64,000 nt of DNA, from positions 11,410,001 to 11,474,000 of the forward strand of contig NC_087250.1 in NCBI RefSeq assembly GCF_037042905.1. Reading direction: 5' to 3'. Positions within the stretch are counted from its first letter, which is position 1. Every line of letters starts with the position of its first letter. Both the position numbers and the translations under genes were made by a program. Source of the DNA: Lytechinus pictus (lineage: Eukaryota). A model generated the notes under the pieces. That model was given only the letters and a program-made list of their open reading frames with translations. It was not told the origin of the DNA and made no database searches. Positions 27,270 through 58,534 of this stretch are shown piece by piece.

Positions 27270-27489
27270 CCTATAATATAATCTCACGTAGTACATCGGC
27301 TTCGCAGAATTTCTAATCTCTCACTTTCATACTCTCCGGATGTGAGTTGCAAACTTTCGGAAACCCATGATTCATAAATATTTCATAAATTGATGATCAC
27401 TTCGTCACGGATAGGACATACATGTAGGCATATCAAAGCCGCTCTGTCAACTCCTGCGTGAATATCAGACTTTTTGGCCAGGTTAATTG
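27270..27489 (+). promoter_or_regulatory. Candidate TATA promoter and non-coding first exon of the four-TM gene
   Basis: CCTATATAATA at about 27270 in unique sequence, followed by a strong TTG|GTAAGT donor at 27490. The link to the 36996 acceptor is inferred. Confidence 0.45.
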
Positions 27490-28860: not shown

Positions 28861-29779
28861 CAGCATTCTACTCATTATTGACGGATCGAGGGAGGGGAGC
28901 AAATCCGGGCCGTATCCCTCCCCCCTCCCCTTGAGAGGCATAAAGAACATTTATAGTGGAAATCTTTGCACACAGGCAAGCGATAACTTTTTTCTTTTTG
29001 CTTGTCAGATTTTTCCGAACAGAATTGCCCCCCTTGCAAAAAATCTACCCATAACTGGTATCATCATCGTCATCATGAGCAATCAATAGTTTTGCCATTA
29101 TTGTCATCACCTCATCATTAAAACAGTATTTTTTTCTTTATAGGTTTCTTCTTCGTCCGTTATTTGCTATATTTTTCCACTTAAAAGATGGTCTCTAAAA
29201 TCCCGAAGAAAATTATCACCCAACGTTTTTAAAACGAATTCACTCTTGTTGGAATGTTGCTACTGTATCTATCTTCATGTATCATGATCATAGTTCTTGC
29301 ACAAATTATTGCTTTTATAGGGTCTGTGAAAAGGAGATGAAAAAATCGTGATTAAAAAAAAGGAATAAATACTGAATCGTCAACGGGGTCTTAATAAGAT
29401 GTAGAAAAGGGGGACAGGGAAGACAGATCTGAAAGGGGACGAATCAGAGTTGAGATATTCCCGTATTCTGAAGTCTTGTTTATTATGGCCTAAAGTTGTA
29501 GTTTAACTTCGGGATGCTTATGTGGCAACAATATCTAGAATTCAGGTCTTCAATGCATTATCTGACACTAAGCAACATTTGAGCCCTAAATGAAACACTT
29601 TTACCAACTTTATGGGGTATGATCTTGCACCCTAAGTGGAATAAAGCTGCCAATATGTACCTTTTTATCATTATCATTTGCACCCCGAAATGTTCGTTTG
29701 CACCCTAAAAGGTTCAACTTTACACATTTTAAGATGGATAATACTTAACATTATAAGAAAGTTCATATTGGTATATAAT

Positions 29780-30240
29780 GTACATGTAATGTAATTTATA
29801 ATTGGCAATATATGGCCATTATTCTTTCTCAAACAACATATTTGTATGTAGGGGTCCCATTATTTGGAATAAGATCCCTCAAAATATTAAGCAGTGCAAA
29901 ACACTTCAAAGCTTTAAAAGACATTTAAAAATACATGTACATTTCATGCAGAAAGTCTCATACTAATAGTAATACTGATATAGATACAATTGTATACTTT
30001 TGTTATGTTTGTTTGTTTCTGTATTTCCTTACTGCATTTGTTTTTTAATTGTGTTGTTTTGTGTTGATTTCAGTATCACTAATCTATAAGTTCCTTGTAA
30101 CTTTTCAGTGATCCTTCCACTATTCTTAAATACACTCACTTTTATTATAATGTATTTTATTGAAAAATGTATACTTCTTGATTTGTATGTTTTTTATGAA
30201 GATTGTTGTAAATAAAGTTTCAATTTCAGTTTCAATATTT
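29780..30240 (+). mobile_element. CR1/L2 (Crack-like) LINE 3' end fragment
   Basis: Remnant FVCRGPIIWNKIPQNIKQCKTLQSFKRHLK, T-rich 3'UTR, AATAAA and (TTTCAA)n tail. Confidence 0.7.
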
Positions 30241-30860
30241 GAACCTTTATTGTATGGTTCAACTCTGCACCCTATGTCTGTATATGGTGCTTAATTCAGC
30301 TACACTTCACCCTTAAAGGGGCACATTTTGAGCTTAGTAAGCCAGTTCGTAGTTCCACTCTGCGCATGATCAGAAGATTCTGCACATCAGAGGAAGGTCA
30401 TTTGTACTAAAGTGACAAGGTGGTTTAAACTTTAATGAGATGAGCACCAACCTCGATGTCTTGATTATTCATATATTCTTTTGAATAGTGTTTTTCATTC
30501 ACATCCACAAAAAACAATGCGTCCACGAATGACTGGTATATTTCACAGTTTGCCAAGTACATTGTACAACATTCTCTAATATGCATTCAAAGTAGAAATG
30601 CAACAGATACCTTCATAGAGTGCTCATTGATGTGCTATTATAGTCACCTGGTCTATTCAATTTCTTCATCCCGATATGTAAGGCATACATACTTAATATC
30701 TTGCTTTGAAATCTCAATGAAAGAAATAAAAGGTCATTTGACCAAAATTGTCCATGAAGTAACTACGAACTGGTCTATTGCACCCAGCACCGTTATAGGG
30801 GTGCTGCTATTGTACCGACCCTTTGGGTTCATATTTGGACCCTTATTTCTTATACATGTA

Positions 30861-31017
30861 CCTTGGTCACATTTGCTCTACGGCGGCCGTACGGCGAGTC
30901 GAAAACAGCCGTTTTAATAATTTTAATTCAAACCACCTATATGTAGTTGGTACAAAAAATGTTAAACGGCTGTTTTCGACTCGCCGTACGGCCGCCGTAG
31001 AGCAAATGTGACCAAGG
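30861..31017. mobile_element. Young hairpin MITE with perfect about 54-bp TIRs and TA TSD; partial extra arm at 31033-31061
   Basis: CCTTGGTCACATTTGCTCTACGGCGGCCGTACGGCGAGTCGAAAACAGCCGTTT and its exact reverse complement. Confidence 0.92.
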
Positions 31018-31969
31018 TACTGCATAAGACATTGGTCACATTTGCTCTACGGCGGCCGTACATACGGCATTTGCGTGTAAATCATTAGGCCTACAAAAAA
31101 ATCAATGATCAATACACAATTTTTTTTTCTTCAAATCATGGAAGGAATCCAGTTAATACAAGAAGAATTACAGTTTAGATTCTTGTCAATCACTTCTCAT
31201 GAAATGTACTGTAGTTGATGAGGTTATACGTATACCTACCTTTTTTATTCATGTAGGCCTATCTATTTTTTTTACATTAATAATAACATGATCAATAGTG
31301 TTTCCATGTTTTTGTATTACGCTGATATGTTTATGTCTTACCCTGTTTTTCGATATATGCCTGTTATTATATGCCAATTATTGTAATTACAATTTTATCA
31401 TGTTTTTAATACACCAGGACCAAGATGCAAATTAGTAATTTTATCTATGATCTTGTGAACCTGTTTAAATATGTTTGAATAAATAAATAAATAATTCAGC
31501 CCAGACAACAGACCATGTCCTAATTAAGTTAATAAACCAGACTCCCGATTACGGGCAATAGAATTAAATTGCATTCACAAATTATGTAAAACTGTCTGTT
31601 CATATCAACAAGTTCTTCAATTGTTTCTTTGACTGCATGGTTATGGGGTCATTTCAATTTTCTGTAATCTTTACTTGTTGATCTATGATACACACATGAA
31701 ATTCTAAATGGAATCACCAGAGGAAAAAAAAGCATATGCAGTGGCCTTGTTGTGGATTCCATTGGTTGATGTACCGTAAAGGGAAACCATCGTTTTCTAT
31801 TCCTTAGAAATATAGAAAGGAAGTGCTATAGATTAGTGAATATTCTCCGAAATCGTAAAAAATATCGATTTTTTTTGATAGGCCAAATAACATGTAGAAG
31901 AAAATAACCTTGGTTTTTCAGCGCTTGAATGTCTGAATAAACCTTTTACTGGGTCTCTCACTATTTTAA

Positions 31970-32535
31970 AGGGATGGTCCAGGCCGGAAGAAGTTTATAT
32001 CTCAATAAATAGAGTAAAATTCACAAAGCAAAATGCTGAAAATTGATCAAAATCGGATAACAAATAACGAAGTAATTAAACTTTAAAGATTTGCATTATT
32101 CCGGTGAAACAGTTCTAGTCATGTCTTCATGAATATTCATTGGTTGGGCTGATGATGTCCTATCCCCACTTTTTATTTTGTATTTTATTATATAGATTCA
32201 GATTTTTCAAAATCTTTCTACCAAGAACTAAAATAATTGGATTGACTTATATCATCATAAAAGAGACGCATCATTTGCTCATGTATGAAAAAATGAAACA
32301 GTTATTATTTCATGTAATAAAATAAGAAAAAGAGAAGTGGGGATATGACATCATCAGCCCACCTAATAAATATTCATGACAATGTGCATTTAACTCTTTT
32401 CACAAAATATTGATAAATTTTGAAATTCAATAACTTCGTTATTTGTTATCTAATTTTGATGAAATTTTCAGCATTTTGCTTTGTGAATTTTACTCTATTT
32501 ATTAGATATAACTATTTTCAGCGCGGACCATCCCT
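31970..32535. mobile_element. Kolobok-like MITE related to 1629-2483
   Basis: TTAA|AGGGATGGTCC ... GGACCATCCCT|TTAA. Confidence 0.88.
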
Positions 32536-32778
32536 TTAAGGGTAGGTAATTGGCAACGAAACTTAAGTAAAGTACTAAGAGGCCTCAAAGCATTTCAGGA
32601 ATGGACGAAAATAGTCATTGTTATAGGAAAATCGTAATGATAAAACGTTTCAAGTCTTACACTACATTATATTGTCCAGGGGAATAGCTGTTCTCAGCAT
32701 AAATGGGGGAAATAATTAAAATGGCATGAATATTCATGAGGGCATCCAAAGGCACTGTATTCGGTACCCTCGGGTTAA

Positions 32779-33369
32779 ATGTCTAGTCCATCCCAGATAA
32801 AGAATGATTTGAATAAAAAAAAAATCAAAGAAACATAACTCTGAACATTTCATCGAATTCGGATGTAAAATAAGGAAGTTATGACATTTTAAAGTTTCAC
32901 TTATTTTTCACAAAACAGTTATGTGCACAACTCAGTGATATGCAAATGAGAGAGTCGATGATGTCCCTCACTATTTCTTTTTTATTGTTTAAAGTGTACA
33001 ACATTTCAATTTTTACAGATTTGACAATAAGGACCCTCTTTCTTGAACCACACAATGTTATACAGTTATAATCACACATTTTCATGTAGGATTCAAACTT
33101 CGTCTCACATGACAGTGAGGAGAAAATTACAATATTTCATATTCCATGTAATGAAATACAAAATAAAAAGTGAGTGGATGATGTCATCAGTTTCTTCATT
33201 TGCAGACCGACCAGGATGTGAATATAACTATTTTGTGAAATCAAACAAAACTTTAAAACGTCATAACTTTCTCATTTTACATCCGATTGTAATGAAATTC
33301 TCTGGGCTATATTTGTTTCATATTTATCTTTTTATTCAAACCAACTTTTTGGTGGGGTGGACTTGTCCT
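32779..33369. mobile_element. Copy of the 4288-4891 MITE family
   Basis: Colinear similarity; right end TGGGGTGGACTTGTCCT|TTAA. Confidence 0.88.
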
Positions 33370-34829
33370 TTAATCTTATCAGCGAATAAGCCAGTTCACG
33401 GTTAGCTCATGATCAACTTTTCTCAAATGACCTTTGTGATTTTTCATTAGGATAAGCACTATCATTTCCAAATGTAGATGTTGCGTAAGCTTTACCGGTA
33501 GAGTATTCAAATTCTAAGAACAAAGGCATTGTATAGACCAGGTGACTAGAATAGTACATCAGGGATAAAGTTTGGAAATCTGTTTTATTGTCTGCCTTTG
33601 GCACATTTGACTATTGTTTAGGCTACTGTCAAATACCAGTGATTATGAAGGCTCTATTTATAACTCTTCAGCTTGGATGTGATAAATATTTTGAAAGGAA
33701 TACATGAATAATCATCAAATCACAAATGCCTATGTCAGTGAATTTGAAAGCCACCTTCGTGGTTGTCTCCAATGCCCTTTTTCTGCTCGTGCGCAGTTTA
33801 CAACCGTGAACAGGCTTATTGCGTGTGTATGTTCTCTCGTACTTCAGAGGAAACAACTTGAATAGCAAAATAGTATTTCATTCAAAAGACCATTATTTTC
33901 GTTATTTCTGTTTGTTCAATTTCATCAATAGCTACGTCATTTAAAAGGATAAACATTGAACTTTCATTTTATCTTCTTAATTTATTGGTATCTCTACAAA
34001 TCCTCAGGTTATTTACTCTTTGAAATGTTCATGAAATTATAATTTCTAGGTTTTACTTATTGAAAAAAAAAACACTATGTAAAATATTAAATTGCGTTAT
34101 GCAGACACACTGGTAGGGCAGTTTTCTAGCTGAAGTGGCTACCCTGGGTAAATAAAACGTAAATTAGTATCGCTTCATTTTTATTCATTGATACGGCATA
34201 CATATTTTAACAATTACATTATCTGCACGATAATATTATCTGCCTTCTTGATAAATCTTAGTAAACATACTTGCCCTTTAAGTTTTATGTCGTGGGTTAT
34301 CAATAAACATTAGTGCGTCAAGGAGAACTCAAATATATTTGCTTGAATCATTGGAAGTGTATTATTGCAGAGTAAATATGATCAGCAAAAGAAGAATAGG
34401 TTACAAGAAATACCATACGCCCGTGACATTTTGAACTGCTTAGCTCAACCATGTCAATATGCTTTCTTTACATTTGAAATGCATTTAGTGAGGAAAAATG
34501 GATTCCAGGTAAATTAGAAAAGGCTTCATGCAAATTAGAACACAAGCAAAAAAAAATAAAGCTGAAGAAATAATAAACAAAATTGATTAATAACAGAAAG
34601 TGAACTATCCAGTCTTGGAGGGGTTAGATGTGCATGCGTCTGTGGGTGAGTGAGGGTTTGTGTGTGTTTAGGGGAAGGGTGCACATCTTAAAGACCAAAT
34701 ATTACTACATCTTTCCTATTTATATATCTAATTTTTATTTTTTTGTTAATTGCATACAAGGCACTAATTGGCCAAGCCCCCAGTAATATTTGGGAGCAAA
34801 ATATACATAAACATCAACAACATACACAG

Positions 34830-35125
34830 TTCTCAATTTTAATTTGCTGCTCAAAATCCCCACTTGTAAAACAAAGATTATTTTAGGAGTACGTGTATTC
34901 GCATTGACAGCCACTACATTTTTTGATAACTTGCCACATGAAATTAGATCTTCTCCATCAGTAGAAACATTTAAACTTAGATTAAAGACGCATCTTCGCC
35001 AATTTCCATACATTTCCTTTCCTTTTTTAAATTTGGTTTGCCAAGCATTTCAGGAGCTCTTACTGCCCAGAGGAATGTATTTACAACAATTTTGCGCTGT
35101 ATAAATCAGTACATTTATTATCATC
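34830..35125 (+). mobile_element. L2-clade LINE 3' end
   Basis: LLKIPTCKTKIILGVRVFALTATTFFDNLPHEIRSSPSVETFKLRLKTHL matches the L2 ORF2 C-terminus pattern; GCGCTGTATAAAT tail runs into (ATT)n. Confidence 0.85.
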
Positions 35126-35154
35126 AGTATTATTATCATTATTACTAATTGTTG

Positions 35155-35226
<72 letters not shown>

Positions 35227-35335
35227 ATAATATTATTATTATTAGTAGTAGTATTATCATTATTGTTGTTATTATTATTACTATTATTATTGTCGTTCAC
35301 GGTTGCTGTTGTTGTTAATATCATTATTATAAATA
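35115..35335. repeat. (ATT)n microsatellite expanded from the LINE tail
   Basis: Read directly. Confidence 0.95.
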
Positions 35336-36289
35336 GTTATTTAAAGTGCACTAGGTGAAGTCATATAAGCAATATTGTGTAATGATTCTGAGATCTTAAA
35401 TCTACCAGAACAGAAAATGTAATAATTCGCCATGGTTCAACTTTTCCCAGGGATATTCAACAAACGTACAATATGTGTACCCTGGGTTGTCGATCAATCT
35501 GTACATAAACTGCAATGATCCATGCCTTATTCATATTCATCATTTTGATGGGCAATTCACTTTGATACAGTCCATATCACAACAATGCCCTTTCTGCAAT
35601 AATGGCTCAGTTTGAAGTCACAATAAGAAATCAGATCAAGTGCGTGAATAAATACCGAGAACAAATAACGCCACAGGTTATTGAAACGGTCCCACCGTCT
35701 GGGCTTTCGAAGTGTTGATACATGCTCGTCGATTGCTTTGTGCATTCACATGTAATGTGTTTAACTGGTATACCTTTTGGTAAAAAATACTGGAATTCTG
35801 TAAATGGACAGATAATTATGTAACAGTGTAATATTAAAATCTGTATAAAGCATTAGAACTAAAATCCGTTAAGAGTAATCAAATGAAGGATACATTGAAT
35901 TATCATTTTATATTTCAATGCCAGATACATGTATATGCTGTTGCCGTTTATCATCTCAAATCTATTGATTCCCTTGTGAAAATAGGAATTTTAGTATATA
36001 TCACGCCCTCTCGCTATTGTTTTAATTTCCTTTAAATTGGCGACGGGAAAATCGCCCCTTCTCAATCATAATACTTATAAAATGATATATCTCGAATTAT
36101 ATGTCATTGTGTTCTTAGTATTCATCAACGATTTTTCCTTATTAGTGCCTCCATTTCGCGCTCACGGTGGTCAGCAATACATATTTATTCGTTCACAAAA
36201 CAAGTATCGAAGGATTGCTGCTAATACTTGTAGTAATACCCGTCCTTGTGGATCATTGTATTTAAAGTTGTGACAGTGGAAGTATTTTA

Positions 36290-36469
36290 TGCTGCTGGTG
36301 GTAGTAAATCTAAAGGAGCAGTAGTGGTGGTAGTAGTGGTAGCAATATCAGTAGAAGTAGTAGTAGTAGTAGTAGTAGTACGTAGTAGTACGTAGTAGTA
36401 GTAGGAGTAGAAGTAGTAGTAGTGGTAGTTGTTGTGGTAGTTGTTGTAGTAGCAGTAGTTAGTAGTAGC

Positions 36470-36522
<53 letters not shown>

Positions 36523-36757
36523 GAGGAGGGGGAGGAGGAGTGGTGGTAGTAGTAGTATCAACACCAGCTTCCTTTCCTTGTCTGCCACACTCTTTAGTCA
36601 TCATGTGGAAGTCTTGAAGGTGATGTATCTTCGTTTGGCATACAGGTTGGCATAGTTAAAGGGTGAAGAGCAGTGGAAACAAAAAGTGTAGTAGAAGAAG
36701 GAGGTGGAGAAGAAGAAGTAGTAGTAGTAGTAGTAGTAATAGTAGTAGTAATAGTAA

Positions 36758-36791
<34 letters not shown>

Positions 36792-36816
36792 GGTGGTGGT
36801 GGTGGTGGTGTTGGTG

Positions 36817-36847
<31 letters not shown>

Positions 36848-36960
36848 AAGTAGTAGTAGTAGTAGTAGTAGTACATGTTGTAGTAATAGTAGAAGTATTG
36901 TCAACAACAGCAGAAGTAATCATTATTATCATAATAATGTTTACTTCTGCTGTTGTTGAT
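36290..36960. repeat. Compound (GTA/GTG)n microsatellite in two blocks
   Basis: Read directly. Confidence 0.95.
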
Positions 36961-37014
36961 ACTAATTCTATGGTACGCCTTTCCATTCTCTTCAGGCACA
37001 AACCTTTCTCAACC

Positions 37015-37236
37015 ATGTGCAAGTGTTGCAAGTGCTGCAGCTTCGATTCGCTAGGATGCAGACTTCGGACCCTCAAGGCCTTTGGCGCCATCCTCTTCGT
37101 CTTTGGGACGTTGTTCGCCCTGGCCGGAATCACCATCGGGTTTCTCTCCGACCTATACTTTAACGTCATCTCTCTACCGGATGTCTTCCCTGAATACATC
37201 CTCTATTCTTACCTGGTGGTGTCTACAGGTGTAGTG
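37015..37236 (+). CDS. Four-TM (MS4A/tetraspan-like topology) membrane glycoprotein, coding exon 1 (MCKCCKCC..., TM1, start of TM2)
   Basis: Acceptor TTCTCTTCAG at 36995, branch-point-like CTAAT at 36962, ACCATG Kozak context, 74 codons, GTG|GTAAGT donor in phase 0. Confidence 0.88.
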
Positions 37237-37321
37237 GTAAGTTTCCCTAGGACCTGTAAGAAGCTGTTTTCAGCGCCTCCGTCGGCACTAAATGTCTTTG
37301 GCAGTGACCCCAATCTGGAAG

Positions 37322-37589
37322 AAAAATGTTTCTGTTTCTGTTTATGGTGACTCCCGTAGGAACTCGGCAGGGAAGCATGTTGCTGGTAAACGCCAAGCTG
37401 GTATATAACCAATTACCTAAGAAACATTTTACGTCTAGGTTAATCAGTCATAATTGCTGACCTTGTAGCTAGACGACAGATATTACTCTCGGGCCTTTTT
37501 AACAAAGTGGAGACAATGGCTGAGTGGGGATTCGAACTCACAAGTCACAACCTTGCGACTATAAGTCCAATGCTCTAACCACTGGACCA
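37322..37589 (-). mobile_element. tRNA-derived SINE
   Basis: Minus strand GGTCCAGTGGTTAGAGC...AGTTCGAATCCCC; body matches 44542-44793; (GAAACA)n tail. Confidence 0.85.
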
Positions 37590-37661
37590 GTAGTAGTCAC
37601 TGAAGCAGCTCTTCCAAGCTAAACTGGGATTGGATGTGATGTGACGGCAGGTGGTCATTAT

Positions 37662-38088
37662 GTCACCCTGACAAGGTTTATTGTGAAAATAGCAGAAAAA
37701 ATCCATCAAAGAATTAAAAAGTTATTAGAATTTAAAATATTTGATTTGTGACATTATATGCCAACATCATTCCTACATAGCGAATGGTAAACAAAAATAA
37801 ATGAAATGTAATTTTTTCAGAAAATTAAAAATGGTTTTTACTACACCTTTTTTATATCATTATACAAATATTTCACACCCGATCATGAATAGAGAGCAAA
37901 AATAAGTCATCTGAAACCATTTGAAAAAATAAAAAATTCAAGCATTATTATTTCAAATAACATGTGGGTCAGTTGCTCGTTTATGACGTCACAAATCAAA
38001 AACTTGAAATTATAATAACTTTCTTAATCTTTAACCGATATTCCTCACACCTTCACCAATATAGATTTCTTCAGGGTGAACTTCCCCT
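37662..38088. mobile_element. Kolobok-like MITE ending CAGGGTGAACTTCCCCT|TTAA; related fragment about 55500-55912
   Basis: Shared right end and internal similarity. Confidence 0.65.
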
Positions 38089-38107
38089 TTAATCATTTTT
38101 TTTTCAG

Positions 38108-38167
38108 GCAGTGGGTACCGGAGTCGTTGCTATATACATCGCCAAGACAATGACTGACGATGACTGG
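38108..38167 (+). CDS. Four-TM membrane glycoprotein, coding exon 2 (AVGTGVVAIYIAKTMTDDDW)
   Basis: Poly-T CAG acceptor, 60 nt in phase 0/0, TGG|GTAAGT donor; completes TM2. Confidence 0.85.
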
Positions 38168-39602
38168 GTAAGTACAGTATTTCCTTAGCTTTTATTTTCT
38201 TAATATATTTCGCCTCTTATAGCAGGGGTATCAGAACAGCGGGGGCTATGGGGTCTTCGGCCCCTGACCTGTTTTTTATTAAACCTGTAGAAAATTAAAC
38301 TGTTGACATCTTATTGGTATTTTTAGCATTGTCAACCCACAAGTTTTAAACCCCTTCTTTCCTATGGTGTAGTGTTTGTTTAATCCTATTTATTGTTTCA
38401 AATCAAAGCAAAGCACAAAATAATTGGCGGTCTTTTGAAGGAAAAAAAGGGTGACAAGACCCTATTCAAGTACTAATACACAGCATACAAATTCGATGAA
38501 TAAGATACTAAATACATAATGACTACATAATAAAGAGTTTGAAGAGGCATGCATGTAAATCGAGTATAAAAATCAGATTACAACTTGTAAGTCACATATC
38601 AAAATGCAATTTCTTACAATGTAAAGCTTATTCTACCTCTTGGCCTTGCCCAATGGTATTCAATATCAATCTGCTTTTTATAATATAGTGTCAGTTCTTA
38701 ATATTTCACCTCCCTCATTCTCCAAAGTACTCAAATTTCACTTATTTGGCCTATATCTCGCTTTTTATTTTTTCATTTTGGAAGAACTTAAAGGTCTGTC
38801 ACACTTGAAGGTATTAGCCAACGACGTACAAGCCGTTTCGGAATCCCATTTATTTATATCAAGTATCAGTGGCGCTTATCCCCTCCCCAACCTTTTCCCA
38901 TTTTTTTCACGACCAAGAAAATAAAAATAAAAGGAAAGAGAAAATGGTGATATATATTATTCTGTGAAAATCTATCACAAAATTAGATTATTTTTTTATA
39001 AATAGGTCGAAATTTTCGCTCGTTTGCAACTTTTCATAAATGTTCCCCGATACGCAAGATCTCGCCCTTCAAAATTGTTGGCTCAATTAGACACTGTCAA
39101 GAATTACATTTTCTTCAGAACACAATTTTTTTCTTAACAATGGACTTCATGCGAACAAAAAAGGTAATGCTAGCAAGAATTGAATGATTGGTTACAACAG
39201 TTGCAGTAATCTTCATTATAACATTTTGTGTTATATTGATTTAATTGAAAAGGTATTTTTAAAGTAATTTTACTTCCACAAAATAACTTCACATCTCGAT
39301 TCATTCATTGCAATCAAACTTTATTTCGGCTCAATTCGAATCTACCATCACAAAGGATAGAGCCTGGATATCAAAGCATATCCCATATAAAATTGGTATA
39401 AAATACTCTTTCAGTATGTCTACAGTTACAATATCTCCTTTTCATTATTATTTCAACTGAGTTGACAAGTTTATAGGTGTAAAGTTTTTGTTTGCTCACA
39501 CACGGTACAAGCGGAGTGGTATGATCTGTAAACGTTTAAAATATTGAAACTATGACAAGAAAAATTCATAGAATAACAATCATTTTCGAAATTTCTTTAC
39601 AG

Positions 39603-40298
39603 AGTACTCGCGGCCTGGCTATCTTAGCACTTCTCACGATCGTGTGCTCATTGGCTAGCGTTGGAGTCCCAGCATGGCCACTCTACGAAAACGGATATTT
39701 CTTTGGCATTCCACCCCAGACATCGACAAATATGACGCCCTCTACGGCCATCATGACAACTCCATTGGCTGTGACAACGGTACCGATGACTACGGTCGAA
39801 AGTGACATGGCGACCAATGCGACTGTCACAAATGGGACATCGAATGATACAAATGGGACTGCAGATAACTCGACAGCATCAGGTGGTGCCAATATGACGT
39901 CACCCAATGTGACAGCACCCAATGTGACGGCAGAAAATATGACGACACCGAATGTGGTGACGCCAAATGTGACGTCGCCAAATGTGACGTCGCCAAATGC
40001 GACGACGCCAAATGTGACGTCACCGAATGTGACGTCACCAAATGTGACTTCCTCAAATATGACATCAGACAATAGCAGCTCATCAGGGATGATGACAACA
40101 CCGGAAGTTACGTCAGGAACTGTGATGGATACCACCGGAAATTCGACTGTTCTTCCAACCACTCGAGAACCGATTAACTTTGATGAGTGGTTATTGCTGA
40201 TGGCACCCTTTGGGATAGTTAGTTTCTTCGCCTTTATATTTATTCTTCTCAGTCTATTCATATGCTGTATAGCATGCTGTTGTCCGGAGCGATCAGAG
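39603..40298 (+). CDS. Four-TM membrane glycoprotein, coding exon 3 (TM3, mucin-like N-x-T repeat loop, TM4, CCIACCC)
   Basis: TTTCTTTACAG acceptor, 696 nt open in phase 0, GAG|GTAAGA donor; lies within ORF 39552-40382. Confidence 0.9.
39891..40070 (+). repeat. Coding 15-bp minisatellite, 12 units (consensus AATGTGACGTCACCA = NVTSP)
   Basis: Read directly: NMTSP NVTAP NVTAE NMTTP NVVTP NVTSP NVTSP NATTP NVTSP NVTSP NVTSS NMTSD. Confidence 0.95.
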
Positions 40299-40377
40299 GT
40301 AAGACTTTCAGAAAATTCCTTTCTCTCTATCTCTCTCTCTTTCTTTTTCTTTTATCAACTTTTTCATTCAGATTTCT

Positions 40378-40589
40378 GGTGACACGACAGTTGCTCCTGC
40401 GACAATTGCTCTGGAATTAATTTAGCCTAAGATGTAGGGTTAGTGTTAGGGTTGCAATAGGGTTTTATATTAGGTTTCGGGTAGGGTATAGTGTTAAACC
40501 CAGTGTTAAAAGTTGGTAATTCGATTAGTGTGTGAAAATTAGAGCGGGGGAACTGTTGCCGGAGCAAATGTCACGGTCCTCACGGAACC
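40378..40589. mobile_element. Short element with internal TAGGGT telomere-like repeats (Tsp-like); split copy at 4179-5374
   Basis: GGTGACACGACA...TTGCTC left end, GAGCAAATGTCA...GGAACC right end at both loci. Confidence 0.7.
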
Positions 40590-41207
40590 AATTTTCTACC
40601 TCCGCCGCGCCGGTTTGCCTGGATCTGCCACTGCCCAAAAAGACAAAATTTCATAGGATTCTTTTCTCAACCCAAACCTGATGACTGCTATTTTGAATAA
40701 TTAATTAAAGATCCATTAAACCGAAATGTCATTTGGGCCTAAACTTACATGTTGTCACACCTGGACGATCAGTTCCCTTGTTTCTCTTTTTTTTTATTGT
40801 TCCACGACCGGTTTTTATTGTCCACAGAATAGTTTTTCATTAGATTTGTTTCATGACTATGACCTGAATTTCCAGGGTCCGTTGCAGAAAGAGTTGCGTT
40901 TAAACGCAAGTCAACAAATCAATCGCAAGTCGATTATTATTCTCTCTTAGCCTCATATTTCATCCATTGTTTGTGCGTTGATAATGTCCTATTGGATAAA
41001 TCATAATGCAGTTTGATTCTGTCTGATGACGTCCAATATACACTGTAAAAAACATCCATTGGTGTCCATGGCGGGCCACACCCTTGGGGATGGTGTTAAG
41101 CCTACACCCTAGAGATTTGACATAACACCAAAGAGTGTAAAACTCCATGTTTCAACCAAAGGTGCTAAAATAACACCCACAGTTACTGAATAATCCCAAC
41201 AATTTAA

Positions 41208-41763
41208 AGGAAAATGAAACCTTCGGAACAAGATAGCTTGTGCAAAAACACAAAAAAAACTAAGAAACAGATCAACGAAAGTTTGAGAAAAATTGAATAA
41301 ATACTAAGAAATATTAGAAATTTAGATTATTGTAATATTGGCAATATGTGTGATGACACCTGTGAACTACTTTCTCATTACTTTTGTATATATTTCACTC
41401 AAACTGCCCCCTTGTCACATCTATCAGTAAATTATGTATTCTTTCTATATAAGGGCATGTAAAACAGATCTTCTAAGAATACATTATGTATATGAAGAGT
41501 TTGTATCATCATAAGAAAGAGCAAAAAGAGACATTTTGGAGGTACATAGTCCATCAAAGGGAAGGTCGTTCACGTGTGAGATCACACATCTTTGTTGCAT
41601 TGCCAATGAGGAGATCTCCATAGCATTAGTGACTGCAGTATTCAAATGCTCATAACTTTCTCATTACCATGTCTTGTCCGATTTTTCTCAAACTTTCTTT
41701 TATTTTATTCTTTGATTTTTCTGTTTTCACACAAGCTCACTTGTTCCAAAGTTTTATTCCCCT
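41208..41763. mobile_element. Kolobok-like MITE (AGGAAAATGAAACCTTCGGAACAAG TIR)
   Basis: TTAA left flank, TTAG right flank, imperfect TIR. Confidence 0.7.
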
Positions 41764-44541
41764 TTAGGTATTTGTGTGGTGTCGTCTGCAACCACACGTT
41801 TTGCTGTGCATTCGAAACTTGTGAATATTCTCTACCTCATGGTTATTTTATATTTATTATTGGTTATTTATGATGTTATTATGGTTATTTATATATCTGT
41901 AAAGCGCTTAGAGACGTCGTTCCGATGTGTTAAGCGCTATATAAATGCGGAATATTATTTATATTTTTTTTCTTCACAAAGTGTAACATTTTTTTTCCTA
42001 TGTCAAAACTACTTTTAGTTTCCATCAGACGAGGAATGGGTAAGACTGTGTATACTGATCGTGCTAATGCTCTTTAATGCCAGTGCATCGAATTACAAAA
42101 GAGAAAATAAATCTATTCATCTGGACGTACTATTATTGAAACGGAGAGCAGTTTTACAAAGAGTTACGATGATCCAATCAATCGTAGCTCTATTGAAATC
42201 CATCAGTGTCATATTTTTTCTTACAGGAAATTTGCAAAATGTCCTTTGCAAACAAATGAGATCACACCCAATTGTCAAGAAATAAATGAATTTATGGATA
42301 TACATTCATATCTATAAAAAAGTTAAAATAAACATGCATTTCATTAATTATGTTGACTTTGCTGGCTTTCCATAGTTGCGATTGATTGGATCAATCGCAA
42401 CTCTTTGTAAGACGAGGCCCTGATCCGGGACGCTTCTTCAGCTCGTCTGAGTTTCCGTTTCAATAAGAGTAGCTCCCGGCCCCCGTTTCATAAAAACTTA
42501 TTTAAAAAAATGCAGTAACAGTTAAAAGCTACTGTAATCCTTCAATCTGATTGGCTGGTAGTAAATTTGCTATAGAATTTGTGCATCTGTTCTCAAAACA
42601 AGTCTTTGTGAAACGGGACATAAATTGATTTATTTTCTCTTTTGTAATTTGACTCTCTTCGTGGAGGAATCAAAACGTACATCAGTTAAATGCTTGTGCA
42701 TGTTATTTCTACTACTGTTAATAAGTGAAATAGATGAGGGGCTTGTATACTTTTTTTCAAATTCAAAGAAAGCTCAGCGGTCGAGCCATCGCACGATAAG
42801 GTAAAATCCTTGTAATCCGGCCTTTCATAATAATATCCAATTTTGTTTGCTAATAAAGGTATCTTACACTAGTTTGAAGTAAACCCCTAATTCGTGTCAA
42901 TAAATGATGCTAATTGTCAAGAATACATTTCGTTTGGCGAATGTTACGACTATCGTGAAGGAAAAAAAGGTAGTCTTGTCAATTACTGTTCAAAAGGTTC
43001 TGAAGCCGTTCACAAAAACGTAAATATCGAGGGGTTTTCTTATCATGTTGAACTGCAAAACGATCAATTTGTGGTGTCAAACCCCTTCTTTCTTTGTTAA
43101 AGCAACAATTACGAATGTTGGATATGTTTATATGCTTGTATCCTTAACAAATGATAATAATACATGTGACTTTACAAAGCGCGAAATCCACTTTGTAGAG
43201 GAGTGCGTTAGGCGAATATACAATTGGAAAGTGAATAGAAAGGTTTAACAACATTTATAAAGACTCAACAGAGATAGAAATCATCTTGTGTCCATTGAAA
43301 ACCGCACTCTTTATCTCCTGATTTTCCCTTTATTTTTAATAATTTGGCGATGTTTTAATTTTTCCATGAGAGGTCGGGAAACGCGATGGTTTGACTCAAG
43401 CCTTTTCTAGATGGTGATATAGTTGCATGGGGATTTTCTTCCTTAGTCATATCAGATAATTTCTGCTATGATTTTGCTATATATTATCTGTAACTATAGT
43501 GATTTAGGGGATGGATCCAACGTCTATTAATTCCAAAGTTATACCGATTAGAATTTTTAAGATGCAAACATGTCTTCCAAGTTTCCTTTTTCCCTTTCAT
43601 TGGGCATTGCTTGAAACTTGGAATCACTTGCATGTTAAGTTTAGGTGAAAAGAGAAAAATCAAACTTAGAGTTTGGCAAATTTTTTTCACTCGTTTGCTA
43701 GTCTGCCTCAGTCTTATAACATACCATAGAAATAAAGTTGCTCTAGTTATAACTGATATATCAATTGTAAATTTGCATCACTAATTGCAGTTGATTGCAA
43801 ATATTTTCTTGCAACACCCCTTAAGTTTTACGCTATGGGTATATAGGTTTTCCGTTTAGTTTTGGTATAATTTGGTTTGGCTTTGCACGTGCCTTCCTTG
43901 ACGTTGCTTTAGTGTTATTAAAGACGATTCTTAAAAAAAAATATTTTTAATATATATTTTTTTGAGTATTACAATCGCTAAACGTAGTTTTTTGGAGACG
44001 GCATGGTAGAAAAAAAGCTTGGTCGCATATTTCAAAATTATTTATTTAAAGGTAAAGATAACCCCAACACGACTGGAATAACACAAACATGAAAGAAACG
44101 TTACAATGTAAGTTTCACTGAAGTGGAAACAGATATTTTAAAAAATTTCCTTACATTTGGAGCCTTGAAATTAGTTAACTTTTTTTAGATGTCATGGTGA
44201 AAAAAAATGTATCTCGTTATTTTTTTTTTTATATCAAGTCAACCCCACTATAAACAAAAATGAAACAAGCATTAAAAGATTTGCTGAAGTGGAAAGTGAA
44301 TCATATGATTATAGAGTACTATTAATGATTACATATTCATTTCTCTTGTGTTCTTTCACTTTGAATGTTTAATTTGTTAAATATGATGACAAAAAGAAAT
44401 TTATTACAATGTTTACCATACGTTAGAAGTAAACATGATAATGTAAATTCCAGCTAATTGATTCATTTGAAAATTCAAATTATCTCACATTTCACATAAA
44501 AAAACTAATTAAATAATGCGCGTGTTGTCATTAGTTCCCTC

Positions 44542-44793
44542 TTTGTTTCTGTTTATGGTAACTCCCGTAGAAATCGGCAGGACAGCGTTTTGCTGGTAAA
44601 CGCCAAGCTGGTATATAACCAATTGTACGTAGGAAACATTTTACGTCTAGGTTAATCAGTCATAATGGCTGACCTTATAGACGAGAGATGTTACTCTCTG
44701 GCCTTTTTATCAAAGTGGAGACAATGGCAGAGTGGGGATTCGAACTCACAACCTTGCGATTATTAGTCCAATGCTCTAACCACTGGACCACAC
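44542..44793 (-). mobile_element. tRNA-derived SINE, same family as 37322-37589
   Basis: Intact A and B boxes; colinear body. Confidence 0.88.
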
Positions 44794-45030
44794 TTTATGT
44801 TTATTTTTTATTGTTCTATTTCTCCCATTTTCTCTAGTTATATATATCAAATGGGGTGGATTTGGCCCTTAAAAAAACAAAAACGTTGGTGCATGTAGTG
44901 TAATGTGATATTACTCTCATGCAATAGGATCACTCTGTTTTTGCCGTATTATCATTTCCCTTTATATCATTCCTACTCACCGCTCCACTTTTCATTCATT
45001 CGTGTTTTTTTTTAATATCCGTTTTAACAG

Positions 45031-45063
45031 ATCGTGGATGACATGGAATTGTATAAGACTTAG
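45031..45063 (+). CDS. Four-TM membrane glycoprotein, last coding exon (IVDDMELYKT*)
   Basis: Long pyrimidine tract + AACAG acceptor at 45030, phase 0, stop TAG; AATAAA at about 45178. The joined protein is 336 aa. Confidence 0.7.
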   Translation: MVDDMELYKT

Positions 45064-45909
45064 AATGGTGATTTGGCGCAGATGTTTACTCAAACGTGGA
45101 GTCTGGGTGATAGACTACGTAGGCCTACTGTTGACGTCATCGTTTGGTCTCCCTCCGCCGATACCAGCAAGTGACTAAATAAACAACAACTAACCTTCCT
45201 TCTTTAAACAAAATTTTTGTTTCCTTTACTGTAAAACCTGGGGTATCAAACCAGCCCCAATTGGTGTCGGACCACATCTAAAGGTGTTAAAGTTACGCCG
45301 TAGATATTGAACTTAACACCAAAGAGTATCGACTAAACTAAATGTGTCGTAATAAGACCAATGCATGTTAAGCCAACGCTGTAATTTTAACCCCACATGG
45401 TTTGCTTTTTAGCATTATCGTTCTGAATAGAACATATTATGCCCCCTTTTGGATCTAACTGCTGTATATTTTCTCTTTTAGCAGCCAAGCCAAAGTATTA
45501 TTGTTTTACACTTATTGTACTTCCCTGCAATTATATCAAAAGCATTGAACATTGTAGAAACATTATTATGTAATCCGAAAGCCATTCGAAAAAATGGCAT
45601 TGATTGTATATCGTAAGGATGGAGCTCCAACATGATATCATTACGAGCATTGAAAATGTGCAAAATTCAAATGTCTTTTTTTCGGTAGTGGGGTCACTTT
45701 TAGTGATTTTAATTCGTATTTTGAGGAATTTTACTATTGTAACAATTCCTCAATCCATGTTTATCTGAAATTGCAATTTTAAATTTTATCAGAATCCTTA
45801 TGCTTCCAATATCTCATGCTAGATATAAAATGATTTACATTATTTCATATTGATGCTCATGTTGGCTATGATGTACACGTGGATGCATGCCCTGTGTACC
45901 TTATTTCTG

Positions 45910-46165
45910 AAGAGTCAAATTTGACTCGGAATGGCGTCAGTTGGGAGTCAATTGTGTTTCGAGTCAAAGTGACTCCTTTCCAATATATTTTTACTGGGAG
46001 TTGAGTGATATTTTAAAGCTAATGTCACACCATTTGACTGGGAATTGACTTGACCCACTACTGACACCATTCCGAGCCAACTTCATTCAGAGTCTGAGTC
46101 AATTGCACTCGAACTAAAGTTGTTTTGACTCACAGCTGACACAATTCTGGGTCAAAGTTGAATCA
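45910..46165. repeat. Palindromic MITE-like element built of GAGTCAA/TTGACTC motifs
   Basis: Multiple nested inverted motifs. Confidence 0.6.
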
Positions 46166-49100
46166 GCAATAATAAGTGATTTGATATGATTAGATACTGC
46201 AGGATACAGGGTATATAGAGCGTTCTCAGAAGTTTAAAAATGTGTTGATTCATTGTTTATGGTCTGATGCGCAGGTTAATTGTTATGCCATCCACTGTGA
46301 CGTCACCTGAAAAAACGTTTTATAGATTCACTATTTTGGTAAACTAATCAATATTTATGCTGCATACGACAAGAGGTGTGGGCTATATTGATTATAAATA
46401 TGTAATTTTCTGCAAGCAGTCGAGGCGGCGATGGATCGGAAGTTTGTTCAAAGTTCAAGTGCACCAATGAGCGGAATCAGGATCATGAATTCAATGAGGG
46501 AGCGGCTAAGTAGGGGCCTAAGATTGACGTCCTATAACCTTCTCAAATGAATTAAAGCGGTATGTCGGGATCTCTCAAATTTGTTGTTTTCTTCCGCTTT
46601 CTTCCCTTTTTAAAATTTAACTACTGGGCAATTCCATAAAATATGTACGTCCGACCCCATATAAATTATGTGGAACCTTCATGAAATATTCTGTCTCTGA
46701 TTTCTGGTTCCTTTGACAGTCTGTAACGCTCTTAAAGTTAAGGTGGCGTTCGGACCATCCTCCCCCCCCCCCCACAATAGCTCTAGTGCCGCCCCTGAGT
46801 CCATCCCAAAAATAAGTTGATTTGAACAAAATAAGCGATGAGTGATAAAAATCAACCAAGCATAACACCAAAAATATCGACTAATTTGCATATATACATG
46901 TACCAAGAGAGCTATGACATTTGTTTTCTTTATGTTTAGCTAATTTTTACGAAAAGGGTTACATGCACGTCCTAGGGCCACGTGATATAAAGCTTAGTAA
47001 CTGATCGTGGGTTAATTGTTACCATTGATCATACACAACGATTAATTCAATCAATTGTAAAATATAGCATACGATCTACCGCTAAAGCTTTATGTAATAT
47101 GGGCCGGGCGGGTGTTTCATAAAGCTGTTCGTAAGAAGAGCGACTTTAACTACGACTGGTAATAGAACGCACCATTTGCGATGATTTAGCGCGCAAGAAA
47201 GGATCACCAGCTGTTCTTAAAGTCGCCCTTAACTTACGAACAGCTTTATGAATCGGCCCCCTAAAAGCATAGAATTTCTAGCACTTTGGGGTTTCAATTT
47301 AGTTTAATTTCTCATCAGAGTATATATATAGACCATGCCAAAATTGTGAATGAAAAGTATCTTCCTCATGGTAGGTTCATATCAACTGAAAAAATATTAA
47401 TATAACAATTTTGAATTATTGCAAGCCTTAGTTTGGAGTAAATGCCAAATTTGTTTCAAATCGTAGCCAATCGTACGATTGCTATGACGTAATTACGACT
47501 AGATATTGAATTCGCTTTTATTCCGATAAGGACGAGAGCAAAGTCACAGATTTTAGCGTAGGTATTGGCACGATGATCTAGAACATTGCGCAGTCAGATA
47601 TTCCATGTTTCATTATTAGCATTAAATTTTACGTTTTATTCCAAAATCGGTTCGCAGAGCAATTGTAAGGTGCACAGTGGTCATTAAACATAACTTAATC
47701 AGTTCAATGATGGTTTGCATGGTTAGTTATTATATTGTTATCTCCATCAACAGCATATAAATGGCAAGGACACTAAAATCTCTCATAGTTAATGATCTGT
47801 GCAATGGCATGAAAATATGGATAGACATATAACCATGATTTTTATGTTAAATAATTTTTTAGCATGGACTTTTATCTCAAATTTCGTTTTTTCTTTCTTT
47901 GTTGTTTGAGTAATCCGTATTAGTAATCACAACTTGTAAGGATGGACTTTATGCCATATTGAAACCTTATATTTTACCGAGATATTCTTTAATTGATATG
48001 TTTGTATTATTATTCATGAACTGTTTTTTTTTTTCATTTATTCTTTTATTGTATTAGTGAGGAATATGTTTTTCTCATGAGTTGAGTCCTGAGTAGACCT
48101 ATGTAAATACGAATTTGAAATTGAATTTGAATGTCGGAAAGCTTACGGCAAATTGTATCACTTTTTTATCATTATACATTACAATTTTCTTTTCACAGTT
48201 CTTAAGAAAGAACTTGATCTTATTCATTAAGAATACATGTCGACATTTCTTCAAACAGTAACGTCGTTTCATTAATGACAGTTAGTAAATAACAGTCGAA
48301 TAATCTCGCGCAGCTCATTTATTGAACTCGACAGTATACCAAATTTGAACATACAATCGATGGCCCAATGATCACGTGATTAATAACACGTGACAGACCA
48401 ACTGTAAAAAGATATTATGAAAGCGGCATTCTTTGTTTATCTTATATCTTCTTTAGGCCAGACTTGCAATAATTAATTAATTGGACATTCATAGCACTAT
48501 GCCGACACTCGTCTTAAATCTCTGTAACTTTGATTTATCATGTTTTGACATTTTATAAGTTTTAAGGGGTGCACGGTTTCGACTCTTATGTGGGAAAAGG
48601 GAAGTGAAACGAAATGGGCGAAGGGCTTCTCTATTTCACTGAGCGCTGATACGAGCTATTCAGCCACAATACTAAAATGATATATCTAACAATGATTTTT
48701 TTTATTTGATTCTTGAGGAAAAACTTTTTTTAAGTCAATGTTTATTCACTAATGAGGTTTAAAGTGTTTTATGATAACTCATATTATGGCTGTAAATCAA
48801 TTGATTTAATGCCCATAAAAAGTGGTGGTTTTGATATTCACGTAGTTGAGAGTGAATCCAGTTTAAAAATTCGGATATTGATCATATTGTGTGGTGCTAT
48901 CATCCTGTATTAACTACTAGTAATTCATCTCAGCTTATTCACCAGATTTGGTGATTTTTCATAGTTCTATTTTTAATGTATAAGAAGACGCAATAATAAG
49001 CTTTTAATACTTATCAGTCACGGTGTTACATTTATTTCATTTGGGCTTTTAAAGCCACGATGACATAGATCATGTTAGAACTTTTTTTTAGAACTCTCTT

Positions 49101-57056: not shown

Positions 57057-57264
57057 TTAGCGAGCTTTCATCCGGCCGCTTCGTCGTCTCTCCGGTTCAG
57101 GTTCATTTTCAGAAGGACCTCTTCGTCTACTTCGTCGTCCTCCTGGTTCCGCCTTGTCAGAGGAGGTCGATGATGTCGGCTGGGAATCAACCGGTGGTCG
57201 ACGACTAACCGGTTTCTGGTCGACCTGGGGCGAGGTGATATTCCAGAGCCTAGGTTTCGGAGCT
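57057..57264 (-). CDS. NCAPD3: NCAPD3 terminal coding exon (APKPRLWNITSP...GRMKAR*)
   Basis: TTTTTCCAG acceptor in phase 2, WNITSP resembles vertebrate WNVRSP, stop TAA at 57059-57057. Confidence 0.88.
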
Positions 57265-58105: not shown

Positions 58106-58139
58106 TTCATTTTCATTTGATAGTACACCAATAGACCAA

Positions 58140-58507: not shown

Positions 58508-58534
58508 ATTGTGGGAAGGATAGAAGCTACTCAC

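What the first reader, a model, noticed from the sequence alone, without database searches (positions are those of the whole stretch)
37015..45063. Unrecognised four-TM protein with a very large N-glycan brush loop
Seen: four phase-0 exons join to 336 aa with four hydrophobic helices, Cys clusters at both cytoplasmic ends (MCKCCKCC and CCIACCC), and a loop of about 165 aa between TM3 and TM4 that is Thr/Ser-rich, Cys-free and carries 19 N-x-S/T sequons by my count. Known: MS4A/CD20-like proteins share this topology but have short loops; tetraspanins need a CCG motif, absent here; juxtamembrane Cys clusters are typical palmitoylation sites. Inference: a palmitoylated tetraspan presenting a dense N-glycan loop tethered at both ends, a candidate glycocalyx, gamete-surface or immune-recognition protein.
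Basis: partly seen in the sequence, partly recalled or inferred. Interest (0 to 1): 0.7.

Follow-up and report, generated by a model that had tools for sequence, protein, structure and literature searches.

The report
Urchin MS4A-like protein with glycan brush
A spliced, expressed sea-urchin gene encodes a predicted four-pass membrane protein, likely a distant CD20/MS4A relative, whose second loop is 169 residues long with 19 N-glycosylation signals (20-35 residues in its sea-star and feather-star relatives), so it likely displays a dense sugar brush on the cell surface.

Summary
Four phase-0 coding exons give 336 aa, identical to Lytechinus pictus LOC129263819 (RefSeq, uncharacterized). RNA reads confirm all three junctions and reveal an upstream untranslated exon. 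The TM3-TM4 loop (169 aa, no Cys) carries 19 sequons, 18 of them NxT, against 7.0 expected. The protein is not unrecognisable. A profile of its first three helices finds 168-189 aa relatives in sea stars and crinoids with 20-35 aa loops. Six of seven full-length ones hit Pfam CD20 (below the curated cut-off), and a model of the sea-star one matches IgE-receptor chains (taken as MS4A2) best among solved structures. The brush occurs in every full-length urchin ortholog found (13-26 sequons), is built from three different repeat units (Lytechinus, Strongylocentrotus, Diadema), and varies in length within the species, while the membrane core is conserved. Best reading: a likely palmitoylated CD20/MS4A-type scaffold whose outer loop became, in sea urchins, an N-glycan brush selected for glycan density rather than sequence. 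Location, tissue and partners are untested; a LAMP-like endolysosomal coat is the main rival. New variant of a known kind, moderate interest.

The parts
27277..27489 (+). 5' untranslated exon (start approximate), followed by a 9.5-kb intron 27490-36995
   Evidence: A loose 5' end of 111 reads in X19 and of contig X1 (212 nt) at 36995 matches window 27460-27489, which ends at a GT donor. In-frame stops lie upstream of the ATG, and there are 4 upstream ATGs.
36996..37236 (+). First coding exon (CDS from 37015): Cys-rich N-tail, TM1, short outer loop, first half of TM2
37018..37059 (+). N-terminal Cys cluster (C2, C4, C5, C7, C8, C15), candidate palmitoylation sites
   Evidence: 5-6 Cys in this region in 16 of 16 full-length family members; C15 invariant; palmitoylation inferred
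38108..38167 (+). 60-nt phase 0/0 exon: second half of TM2 and the inner loop
   Evidence: A sea-star read-through record (P0023) leaves the alignment at the same upstream boundary.
39603..40298 (+). 696-nt exon: TM3, the glycan loop, TM4 and the C-terminal Cys cluster
39681..40187 (+). Second outer loop, residues 121-289: 19 sequons (18 NxT), 36% Ser+Thr, no Cys
   Evidence: predicted disordered, pLDDT under 50 for residues 115-288
39891..40070 (+). 12 x 15-nt tandem repeat coding N-[VMA]-T-[STA]-P; a 10-unit allele exists
   Evidence: Asn codon in 12 of 12 units, Thr in 11 of 12. 30 nt are absent in contigs X1, X2 and X15.
40263..40283 (+). Cys cluster at the cytoplasmic end of TM4 (residues 315-321)
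   Evidence: 3-5 Cys in 16 of 16 members; C319 and C321 invariant
45031..47135 (+). Last exon: 10 codons plus stop (45031-45063) and a 3' UTR of about 2.1 kb (end not fixed)
   Evidence: contig X1, 3328 nt; stranded read depth

Best explanation
This spliced, expressed gene encodes a predicted four-helix membrane protein, likely of the CD20/MS4A fold, whose second loop holds 19 N-glycosylation signals and likely acts as a dense sugar brush on the cell surface. The predicted topology puts both ends in the cytoplasm, where conserved Cys clusters would be palmitoylated and would hold the protein in ordered membrane patches, as for other tetraspans. The TM3-TM4 loop would face the ER lumen during synthesis and receive up to 19 N-glycans, probably with O-glycans too. 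That would roughly double the 35.5-kDa polypeptide (estimate). Tethered at both ends, the loop would work as a hydrated steric coat and multivalent glycan display that spaces membranes apart or shields and clusters neighbouring proteins. The ancestor was likely a short-loop MS4A-like protein, as still seen in crinoids and sea stars. In sea urchins the loop expanded by tandem repeats that have turned over in sequence, and selection appears to keep glycan density rather than a fold or binding site. Shown: transcript, sequence, sequon excess, homology, loop lengths. Predicted: fold, topology. Inferred: glycosylation, palmitoylation, surface location, function.
For: Transcript and strand; roughly 60-90 reads per kb per million records in three runs of one study. 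Short-loop relatives found at E 3.6e-18 to 3.9e-11 among 1.84 billion proteins. They align over all four helices, with anchors (L-Y-E-x-x-Y-F, then W) on both sides of the insertion. Pfam CD20 is hit by 6 of 7 full-length short-loop relatives, E 4.5e-6 to 0.025. The MS4A TM2 pattern W-[AG]-G-x6-G is in 7 of 7 of them (pattern as in the PMC2826416 Fig. S1 rows). Sea-star model (pLDDT 73, pTM 0.67): the top four Foldseek rows are three IgE-receptor chains and CD20 (best E 4.5e-3, TM 0.66/0.73); the top two VIA rows are IgE-receptor chains (Z 15.7, rmsd 3.2 over 153; Z 14.5). Loop and sequons: 146-212 aa and 13-26 in 10 urchin records, against 20-35 aa and 0-2 in 7 others. NxT bias is 18/19, 25/26 and 11/13, even where Ser is nearly as common as Thr (Strongylocentrotus, 45 Thr and 42 Ser). 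Repeat periods are 5, 36 and 8 aa in three genera. Core identity is 148/177 to Strongylocentrotus and 102/177 to Diadema. First and last sequons lie 15-17 residues from the helix anchors in four orthologs, which fits the recalled 12+14 distance rule.
Against: No urchin protein itself hits Pfam CD20 (0 of 10), and the TM2 Trp is lost in 9 of 9. All CD20 scores of the relatives are under the cut-off (best 27.2 against 27.9 bits), and 4 of 10 short-loop records have no hit (P0014 and three partial ones). No Foldseek row reaches E 0.001. Sarcospan-complex (Z 14.0) and uroplakin (13.4) chains lie close behind, and helical bundles can reach about Z 13-14 by arrangement alone. The urchin protein's own model is poor and its fold searches are undecided. 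ESM feature hits are only 0.78-0.82, within chance range. Repeat units are not independent, so shuffle tests overstate significance. No tissue, location, glycan or lipid data. A relaxed acidic-dileucine pattern in 12 of 16 tails (canonical in 1) is compatible with an endosomal location instead.
Confidence: 0.5

Rival explanations
1. Endolysosomal coat protein: the same fold and glycans, but sorted to endosomes, lysosomes or secretory granules. There the brush would line the lumen and protect the membrane from hydrolases, as LAMPs and CD63 are known to do (recalled).
For: An N-glycan count like that of LAMPs (recalled, about 16-20). An invariant S-E just after TM4 sits in a relaxed [DE]xxx[LI][LIV] pattern in 12 of 16 tails, a canonical one in the crinoid P0016, and YxxPhi in 4 of 4 sea-star-like tails. 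Fairly high expression in three runs.
Against: Urchin tails have neither a canonical dileucine nor a YxxPhi motif (0 of 9), and the Diadema tails lack even the relaxed pattern. MS4A proteins are described as surface and raft proteins (PMC11663944 passages).
Confidence: 0.2
2. Accessory subunit: like the IgE-receptor beta chain or MS4A4A, the helices bind a receptor or channel and control its traffic or signalling. The glycan loop only tunes the partner's spacing or stability.
For: The closest solved folds are IgE-receptor chains. MS4A proteins act as receptor chaperones and modulators (PMC11663944 passages). The membrane core is conserved across three echinoderm classes, with or without the brush.
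Against: The tails are very short (21 and 15 aa) with no ITAM-like spacing (sequence). No partner is known. This reading does not explain why sequon density is kept while the sequence turns over.
Confidence: 0.15
3. Recognition ligand: a gamete- or coelomocyte-specific glycan display whose repeat number and spacing differ between species or individuals and are read by lectins.
For: The loop diverges fast and differs in repeat unit between genera. Length variants occur within L. pictus and among L. variegatus records. Urchin sperm rafts carry heavily glycosylated proteins such as flagellasialin (PMC9630641 passage).
Against: One copy in the 64-kb window and one or two near-identical loci per named genome, unlike diversified recognition families. 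No tissue data. Repeat slippage alone gives length variation.
Confidence: 0.1
4. Neutral expansion: the loop is tolerated repeat slippage in a dispensable region, and the sequons are by-products.
For: Length polymorphism and repeat turnover; short loops suffice in sea stars and crinoids.
Against: Three different repeat units all encode NxT. The Asn codon is fixed in 12 of 12 units while positions 4-5 vary. Non-repeat parts are also enriched. All 26 Asn of the Strongylocentrotus loop are in sequons.
Confidence: 0.05

Closest known systems
CD20-like family (Pfam PF04103) / MS4A proteins, above all the IgE-receptor beta chain (MS4A2) and CD20 (MS4A1)
   Same: Four helices with both ends inside and a short inner loop; TM1 glycine heptad; TM2 W-G-x7-G pattern in the short-loop orthologs; best fold match of the sea-star ortholog. 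By my recall, vertebrate MS4A genes also have a phase-0 intron in mid-TM2 followed by a 57-nt exon; this was not verified in a paper.
   Different: The second outer loop is 146-212 aa and sequon-dense, against a short MS4A loop (PMC11663944 prints the range as '1046', which I read as 10-46 aa). It lacks the loop Cys pair. Tails are very short and Cys-rich. The TM2 Trp is lost in urchins. PMC2826416 does not count invertebrate look-alikes as MS4A proper.
Tetraspanins (CD9, CD81, CD63, uroplakin I)
   Same: Short first and large second outer loop; glycine heptads in TM1 and TM2 (G24-G31-G38, G72-G79-A86; compare NGG7 and GGA7 in PMC1190194); juxtamembrane Cys; uroplakin Z 13.4.
   Different: No CCG or any Cys in the loop; Gly in place of the TM1 Asn; the loop is predicted disordered, not a helical disulfide-bonded domain.
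LAMPs, endolyn/CD164 and membrane mucins (recalled)
   Same: Dense glycan coat on a membrane anchor; Ser/Thr/Pro-rich tandem repeats of variable number.
   Different: Those are single-pass with a free N-terminal ectodomain, and mucin repeats are mainly O-glycosylated. Here the repeat unit itself is an N-glycan sequon and the loop is tethered at both ends.
Flagellasialin (sea-urchin sperm glycoprotein)
   Same: Urchin membrane glycoprotein with heavy glycosylation, concentrated in rafts (PMC9630641 passage).
   Different: It carries sulfated alpha2,9-polysialic acid and, by my recall, is a small single-pass O-glycoprotein. I did not compare the sequences.

Membership tests
CD20-like / MS4A-like (broad sense, PF04103) | Four TM helices, N- and C-termini cytoplasmic, two outer loops and one inner loop | tested here: met
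   Hydropathy, AlphaFold helices, charge bias; prediction only
CD20-like / MS4A-like (broad sense, PF04103) | Match to the PF04103 profile at the curated cut-off | tested here: inconclusive
   Urchin proteins 0 of 10. Short-loop orthologs: 6 of 7 full-length hit at E 4.5e-6 to 0.025, best 27.2 bits against a cut-off of 27.9.
CD20-like / MS4A-like (broad sense, PF04103) | MS4A helix-bundle fold | tested here: met
   Met for the sea-star ortholog's model: IgE-receptor chains rank first in Foldseek and VIA, with sarcospan-complex and uroplakin chains 1.7-2.3 Z behind. Undecided for the urchin protein's own low-confidence model.
MS4A proper (jawed-vertebrate family) | TM2 motif GYPFWG...FIISGSLS | tested here: inconclusive
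   W-[AG]-G-x6-G in 7 of 7 short-loop orthologs and 0 of 9 urchin proteins, where only the two Gly remain (motif)
MS4A proper (jawed-vertebrate family) | TM3 motifs SLx2Nx2 and Sx3Ax2G | tested here: not met
   TM3 has no Asn in the urchin proteins; only A-x2-G is present (alignment; motifs)
MS4A proper (jawed-vertebrate family) | Short second outer loop, mostly with two Cys | tested here: not met
   169 aa and 0 Cys. The short-loop orthologs also lack loop Cys.
MS4A proper (jawed-vertebrate family) | Shared intron positions (phase-0 intron in mid-TM2, then a 57-nt exon) | tested here: inconclusive
   The window has a phase-0 intron two codons after the TM2 Gly72 and a 60-nt exon, shared with a sea-star record. 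The vertebrate side is recalled only; searches did not supply it.
MS4A proper (jawed-vertebrate family) | Branching within the vertebrate MS4A clade, or synteny | not testable with these tools
   No vertebrate MS4A sequence was returned by any search; no genome is held
Tetraspanins | CCG motif and 4-8 Cys in the large outer loop | tested here: not met
   No Cys in the loop; CCG is absent from 15 of 16 members, and in P0014 it lies at TM1
Tetraspanins | NGG7 in TM1 and GGA7 in TM2 | tested here: inconclusive
   GGA7 is present (G72, G79, A86); TM1 has GGG7 without the Asn, in 16 of 16
Claudin/PMP22 superfamily | Large first outer loop with W-GLW-C-C (motif recalled) | tested here: not met
   The first outer loop is about 18 aa with no Trp or Cys; claudin-15 Z 11.6, below the MS4A rows
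Palmitoylated tetraspan glycoproteins (functional class) | S-acylation and N-glycan occupancy | not testable with these tools
   Needs acyl-biotin exchange and PNGase F or glycoproteomics

The most novel reading that the evidence does not exclude
Sea urchins have built an 'N-glycan mucin' on an MS4A scaffold: a doubly tethered, variable-number repeat loop whose unit is a sequon. It has been re-evolved with different repeat units in each lineage and serves as a species- or individual-specific glycan code at the gamete or coelomocyte surface. This would be an MS4A-type protein that works through a glycan ectodomain rather than through its helices and tails.
Probability: 0.12. Interest if true: 0.7.

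Novelty: new variant of a known kind. Interest (0 to 1): 0.38.

Why it matters
It assigns an uncharacterized urchin gene, mislabelled 'mucin-5B' in S. purpuratus, to the CD20/MS4A fold and traces the family through three echinoderm classes. It is also a clean natural comparison: the same membrane core carries a 20-35 aa loop in crinoids and sea stars and a 146-212 aa loop with 13-26 sequons in urchins. That makes it easy to ask what a dense N-glycan brush adds to a tetraspan (loop swaps, Asn-to-Gln series) in a genetically tractable urchin. It also shows selection on sequon density while the repeat sequence turns over. It does not yet bear on a long-standing question, since tissue, location and phenotype are unknown.

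Tried and rejected
No genome is held for the window, so paralogs beyond 64 kb and synteny were not checked. Pfam on the urchin proteins gave only low-complexity or generic membrane hits (Extensin_1, SOG2, Sigma_M_inh, Claudin_3 at E 0.064, BCLP at 0.2, Tetraspanin at 0.75); all rejected. PDB sequence searches gave nothing under E 0.16. ESM Atlas: no usable hit for exon 1; the full-length feature hits (CD20, BCLP, L6; 0.78-0.82) are leads only and the structure rows are all TM 0.40 or less. Fold searches with the urchin model were undecided. No sea-cucumber, cidaroid, irregular-urchin or non-echinoderm member appeared among named hits; these searches see cluster representatives only and one search scored only 7,998 candidates, so absence is not shown. 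No holder run was on record as RNA; raw RNA runs of the same species label were laid instead. Contig depths cannot rank expression and tissues are not given. The first 27-nt search for the upstream exon failed because reads and window differ by one T and one substitution; shorter patterns found it. An assembly-collapse origin of the 30-nt shorter allele is unlikely: the longest run identical at lag 15 is 24 nt, under the 31-nt word, and its linked base changes appear in 17 of 112, 24 of 133 and 22 of 79 raw reads. However, 0 raw reads were listed with the gap itself. mis-set the loop end of P0014 (53 aa; corrected to 35) and its N-terminal Cys column was faulty (redone). P0010 was left out of loop counts because it lacks most of TM4; P0008 and P0021-P0023 are partial and were left out of the tree and. 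Paper searches: 0 papers for 13 accession or locus terms; 2 papers for urchin plus four-TM plus N-glycosylation terms, neither on this protein by title and abstract start; MS4A plus sea urchin gave 18 listed, one relevant; one search was uninformative. No complex prediction was run. Earlier scan findings: nothing in three look-ups.

Full report
Observation. The four coding exons are 37015-37236, 38108-38167, 39603-40298 and 45031-45063, all phase 0, and give 336 aa. Stranded RNA reads from three runs of one study span each GT..AG junction (80/104/37, 85/108/44, 69/99/34 reads), with first mates on the minus strand, which in most such libraries means a plus-strand RNA. One 3328-nt contig holds the whole mRNA. 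Contigs from four studies and two species leave the large exon at both ends into the neighbouring exons. A loose 5' end maps to a non-coding exon that ends at 27489. The protein reads the same as RefSeq's uncharacterized LOC129263819 of Lytechinus pictus, and there is one copy in the window.

The loop. Residues 121-289 (169 aa) have 36% Ser+Thr, no Cys and one basic residue. They hold 19 sequons from 22 Asn, 18 of them NxT, and none lies elsewhere in the protein. Shuffles give a mean of 7.0, and 0 of 20,000 reach 19. Repeat units are not independent, so I removed the repeat: 9 sequons remain against 3.6 expected (8 of 20,000). The repeat is 12 units of 15 nt, with Asn fixed in 12 of 12, Thr in 11 of 12, and positions 4 and 5 free to vary. 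A 10-unit allele is in three of three same-species contig runs laid. Charge distribution, hydropathy and AlphaFold (four helices, disordered loop, mean pLDDT 41) agree on both ends inside and the loop outside. This is prediction.

Relatives in urchins. Orthologs occur in L. variegatus, S. purpuratus, Diadema antillarum and D. setosum. Ten records (nine full-length, one partial; P0010 left out because it lacks most of TM4) have loops of 146-212 aa with 13-26 sequons. The repeat period is 5 aa in Lytechinus, 36 in Strongylocentrotus and 8 in Diadema, while the loop-less core is 148/177 and 102/177 identical to the latter two. All 26 loop Asn of the Strongylocentrotus protein are in sequons, and 25 are NxT although Thr and Ser are about equally common. 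Density of N-glycan sites, not sequence, is what is kept (inference).

Family. No urchin protein matches a Pfam family at threshold. A profile of TM1-TM3 run over 1.84 billion representatives gave 6 hits, three of them new short proteins: a sea star (Patiria), a crinoid (Anneissia) and an unnamed record. A second search added Acanthaster, Asterias, Antedon, another full-length unnamed record and three partial ones. They align through all four helices and both Cys clusters, and differ only in having 20-35 aa and 0-2 sequons where urchins have the brush. Six of the seven full-length ones hit Pfam CD20 (E 4.5e-6 to 0.025, all under the 27.9-bit cut-off). All seven keep W-[AG]-G-x6-G in TM2, the pattern seen in the MS4A rows of PMC2826416 Fig. 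S1 (supplement search). Urchins have lost that Trp, which probably explains their missing hit. The Patiria model (pLDDT 73, pTM 0.67) finds three IgE-receptor chains and CD20 as its top four Foldseek rows (best E 4.5e-3, TM 0.66/0.73; none at E 0.001 or below). It finds IgE-receptor chains at ranks 1 and 2 of 48,161 in VIA (Z 15.7, rmsd 3.2 over 153; Z 14.5), ahead of a dystrophin-complex chain (14.0, taken as sarcospan), uroplakin (13.4), claudin-15 (11.6) and CD20 (10.6). I take the 157-160-residue IgE-receptor chains to be the beta chain, MS4A2; the rows do not say so. Sequence profile, motif and fold therefore agree on CD20/MS4A-like in the broad sense (about 85-90%). It is not MS4A proper: the TM3 motifs and loop Cys pair are absent, and PMC2826416 (passages and one part of the text) restricts the family to jawed vertebrates while noting invertebrate look-alikes. 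It is not a tetraspanin (no CCG or loop Cys), though it shares glycine heptads (PMC1190194 passages).

History. The core tree has three supported groups: crinoids, sea stars plus one long-branch unnamed record, and urchins (midpoint root for drawing only). Crinoids are the earliest-branching living echinoderms (recalled), so the short loop is likely ancestral, and the brush was likely gained before Diadema and camarodont urchins split. Sea cucumbers, cidaroids and irregular urchins did not appear among named hits, so the branch is not fixed. Read-through records leave the alignment at the same phase-0 introns (mid-TM2 in P0023; after S-E in P0008, P0021 and P0022), which supports orthology. 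By my recall vertebrate MS4A genes share the mid-TM2 intron and a 57-nt exon. Two searches and one passage did not confirm this.

Mechanism. The most likely reading (0.5 as a whole) is a palmitoylated MS4A-type anchor in ordered membrane patches that carries a doubly tethered N-glycan brush at the cell surface, acting as a steric coat and multivalent glycan display. MS4A proteins are described as raft-resident homo- and heteromers that modulate receptors (PMC11663944 passages), and juxtamembrane Cys palmitoylation is known for tetraspanins. Nineteen glycans would about double the 35.5-kDa chain (glycan mass estimated). Rivals: an endolysosomal coat of LAMP type (0.2; relaxed dileucine-like pattern in 12 of 16 tails, but no canonical signal in 9 of 9 urchin tails); an accessory subunit of a receptor (0.15); a gamete or immune recognition ligand (0.1; compare flagellasialin, PMC9630641 passage); neutral expansion (0.05). 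Expression is about 60-90 reads per kb per million records in three runs, tissue not given.

Novelty. Thirteen accession and locus terms gave no paper in the full-text library, and topic searches gave none on this protein (listings only). Supplementary tables and subscription journals were not searched, and I do not have the S. purpuratus gene symbol, so it may sit in published marker or proteome lists. The gene model is already in RefSeq. What is new is the family assignment and the urchin-specific, repeat-built N-glycan loop. Verdict: new variant of a known kind, interest 0.38.

Noticed in passing
window 10029-11306, minus strand: Exon of a C2H2 zinc-finger gene with 11-12 fingers; ordinary.
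   Followed up: partly
window 57057-62026, minus strand: Several open frames with Pro/Arg/Gly-rich low-complexity sequence that look like exons of one gene; no Pfam match under E 0.04. Not identified.
   Followed up: partly
window 37333-37589 and 44544-44790: Two copies (91-94% alike in blocks) of an interspersed repeat of about 260 nt in the gene's introns, with reads on both strands. SINE-like by eye; ARAGORN finds no tRNA.
   Followed up: partly
window 41891-41960: Hundreds of stranded reads (420-848) share a loose end at 41891 and 73-162 molecules begin at 41950. Probably an abundant transcript from elsewhere that shares a repeat.
   Followed up: no
window 27277-27489: The 5' UTR has four upstream ATGs, including uORFs of 8 and 22 codons; possible translational control.
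   Followed up: no
window 37162: A common allele changes Asn50 to Asp in the first outer loop (90 of 159, 102 of 211, 70 of 70 reads); S. purpuratus has Asp here.
   Followed up: partly
window 39749: A 3-nt in-frame deletion in the loop in 13 of 60 reads of X21 and in both contig runs of the second species.
   Followed up: no
P0004/P0005 versus P0011/P0012; P0006 versus P0007: L. variegatus has two near-identical loci and S. purpuratus two near-identical records: tandem duplicates or uncollapsed haplotypes. L. variegatus isoforms differ by a 17-aa duplicated stretch in the loop.
   Followed up: no
P0009, P0010: The D. antillarum records look mis-predicted: P0009 has a 25-aa insert at the intron after the inner loop, and P0010 lacks most of TM4.
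   Followed up: partly
window 28200-28900, 36300-36900, 62500-63300: Long trinucleotide microsatellites (CAT/CAC and GTA/GTG types) that create spurious low-complexity ORFs.
   Followed up: no
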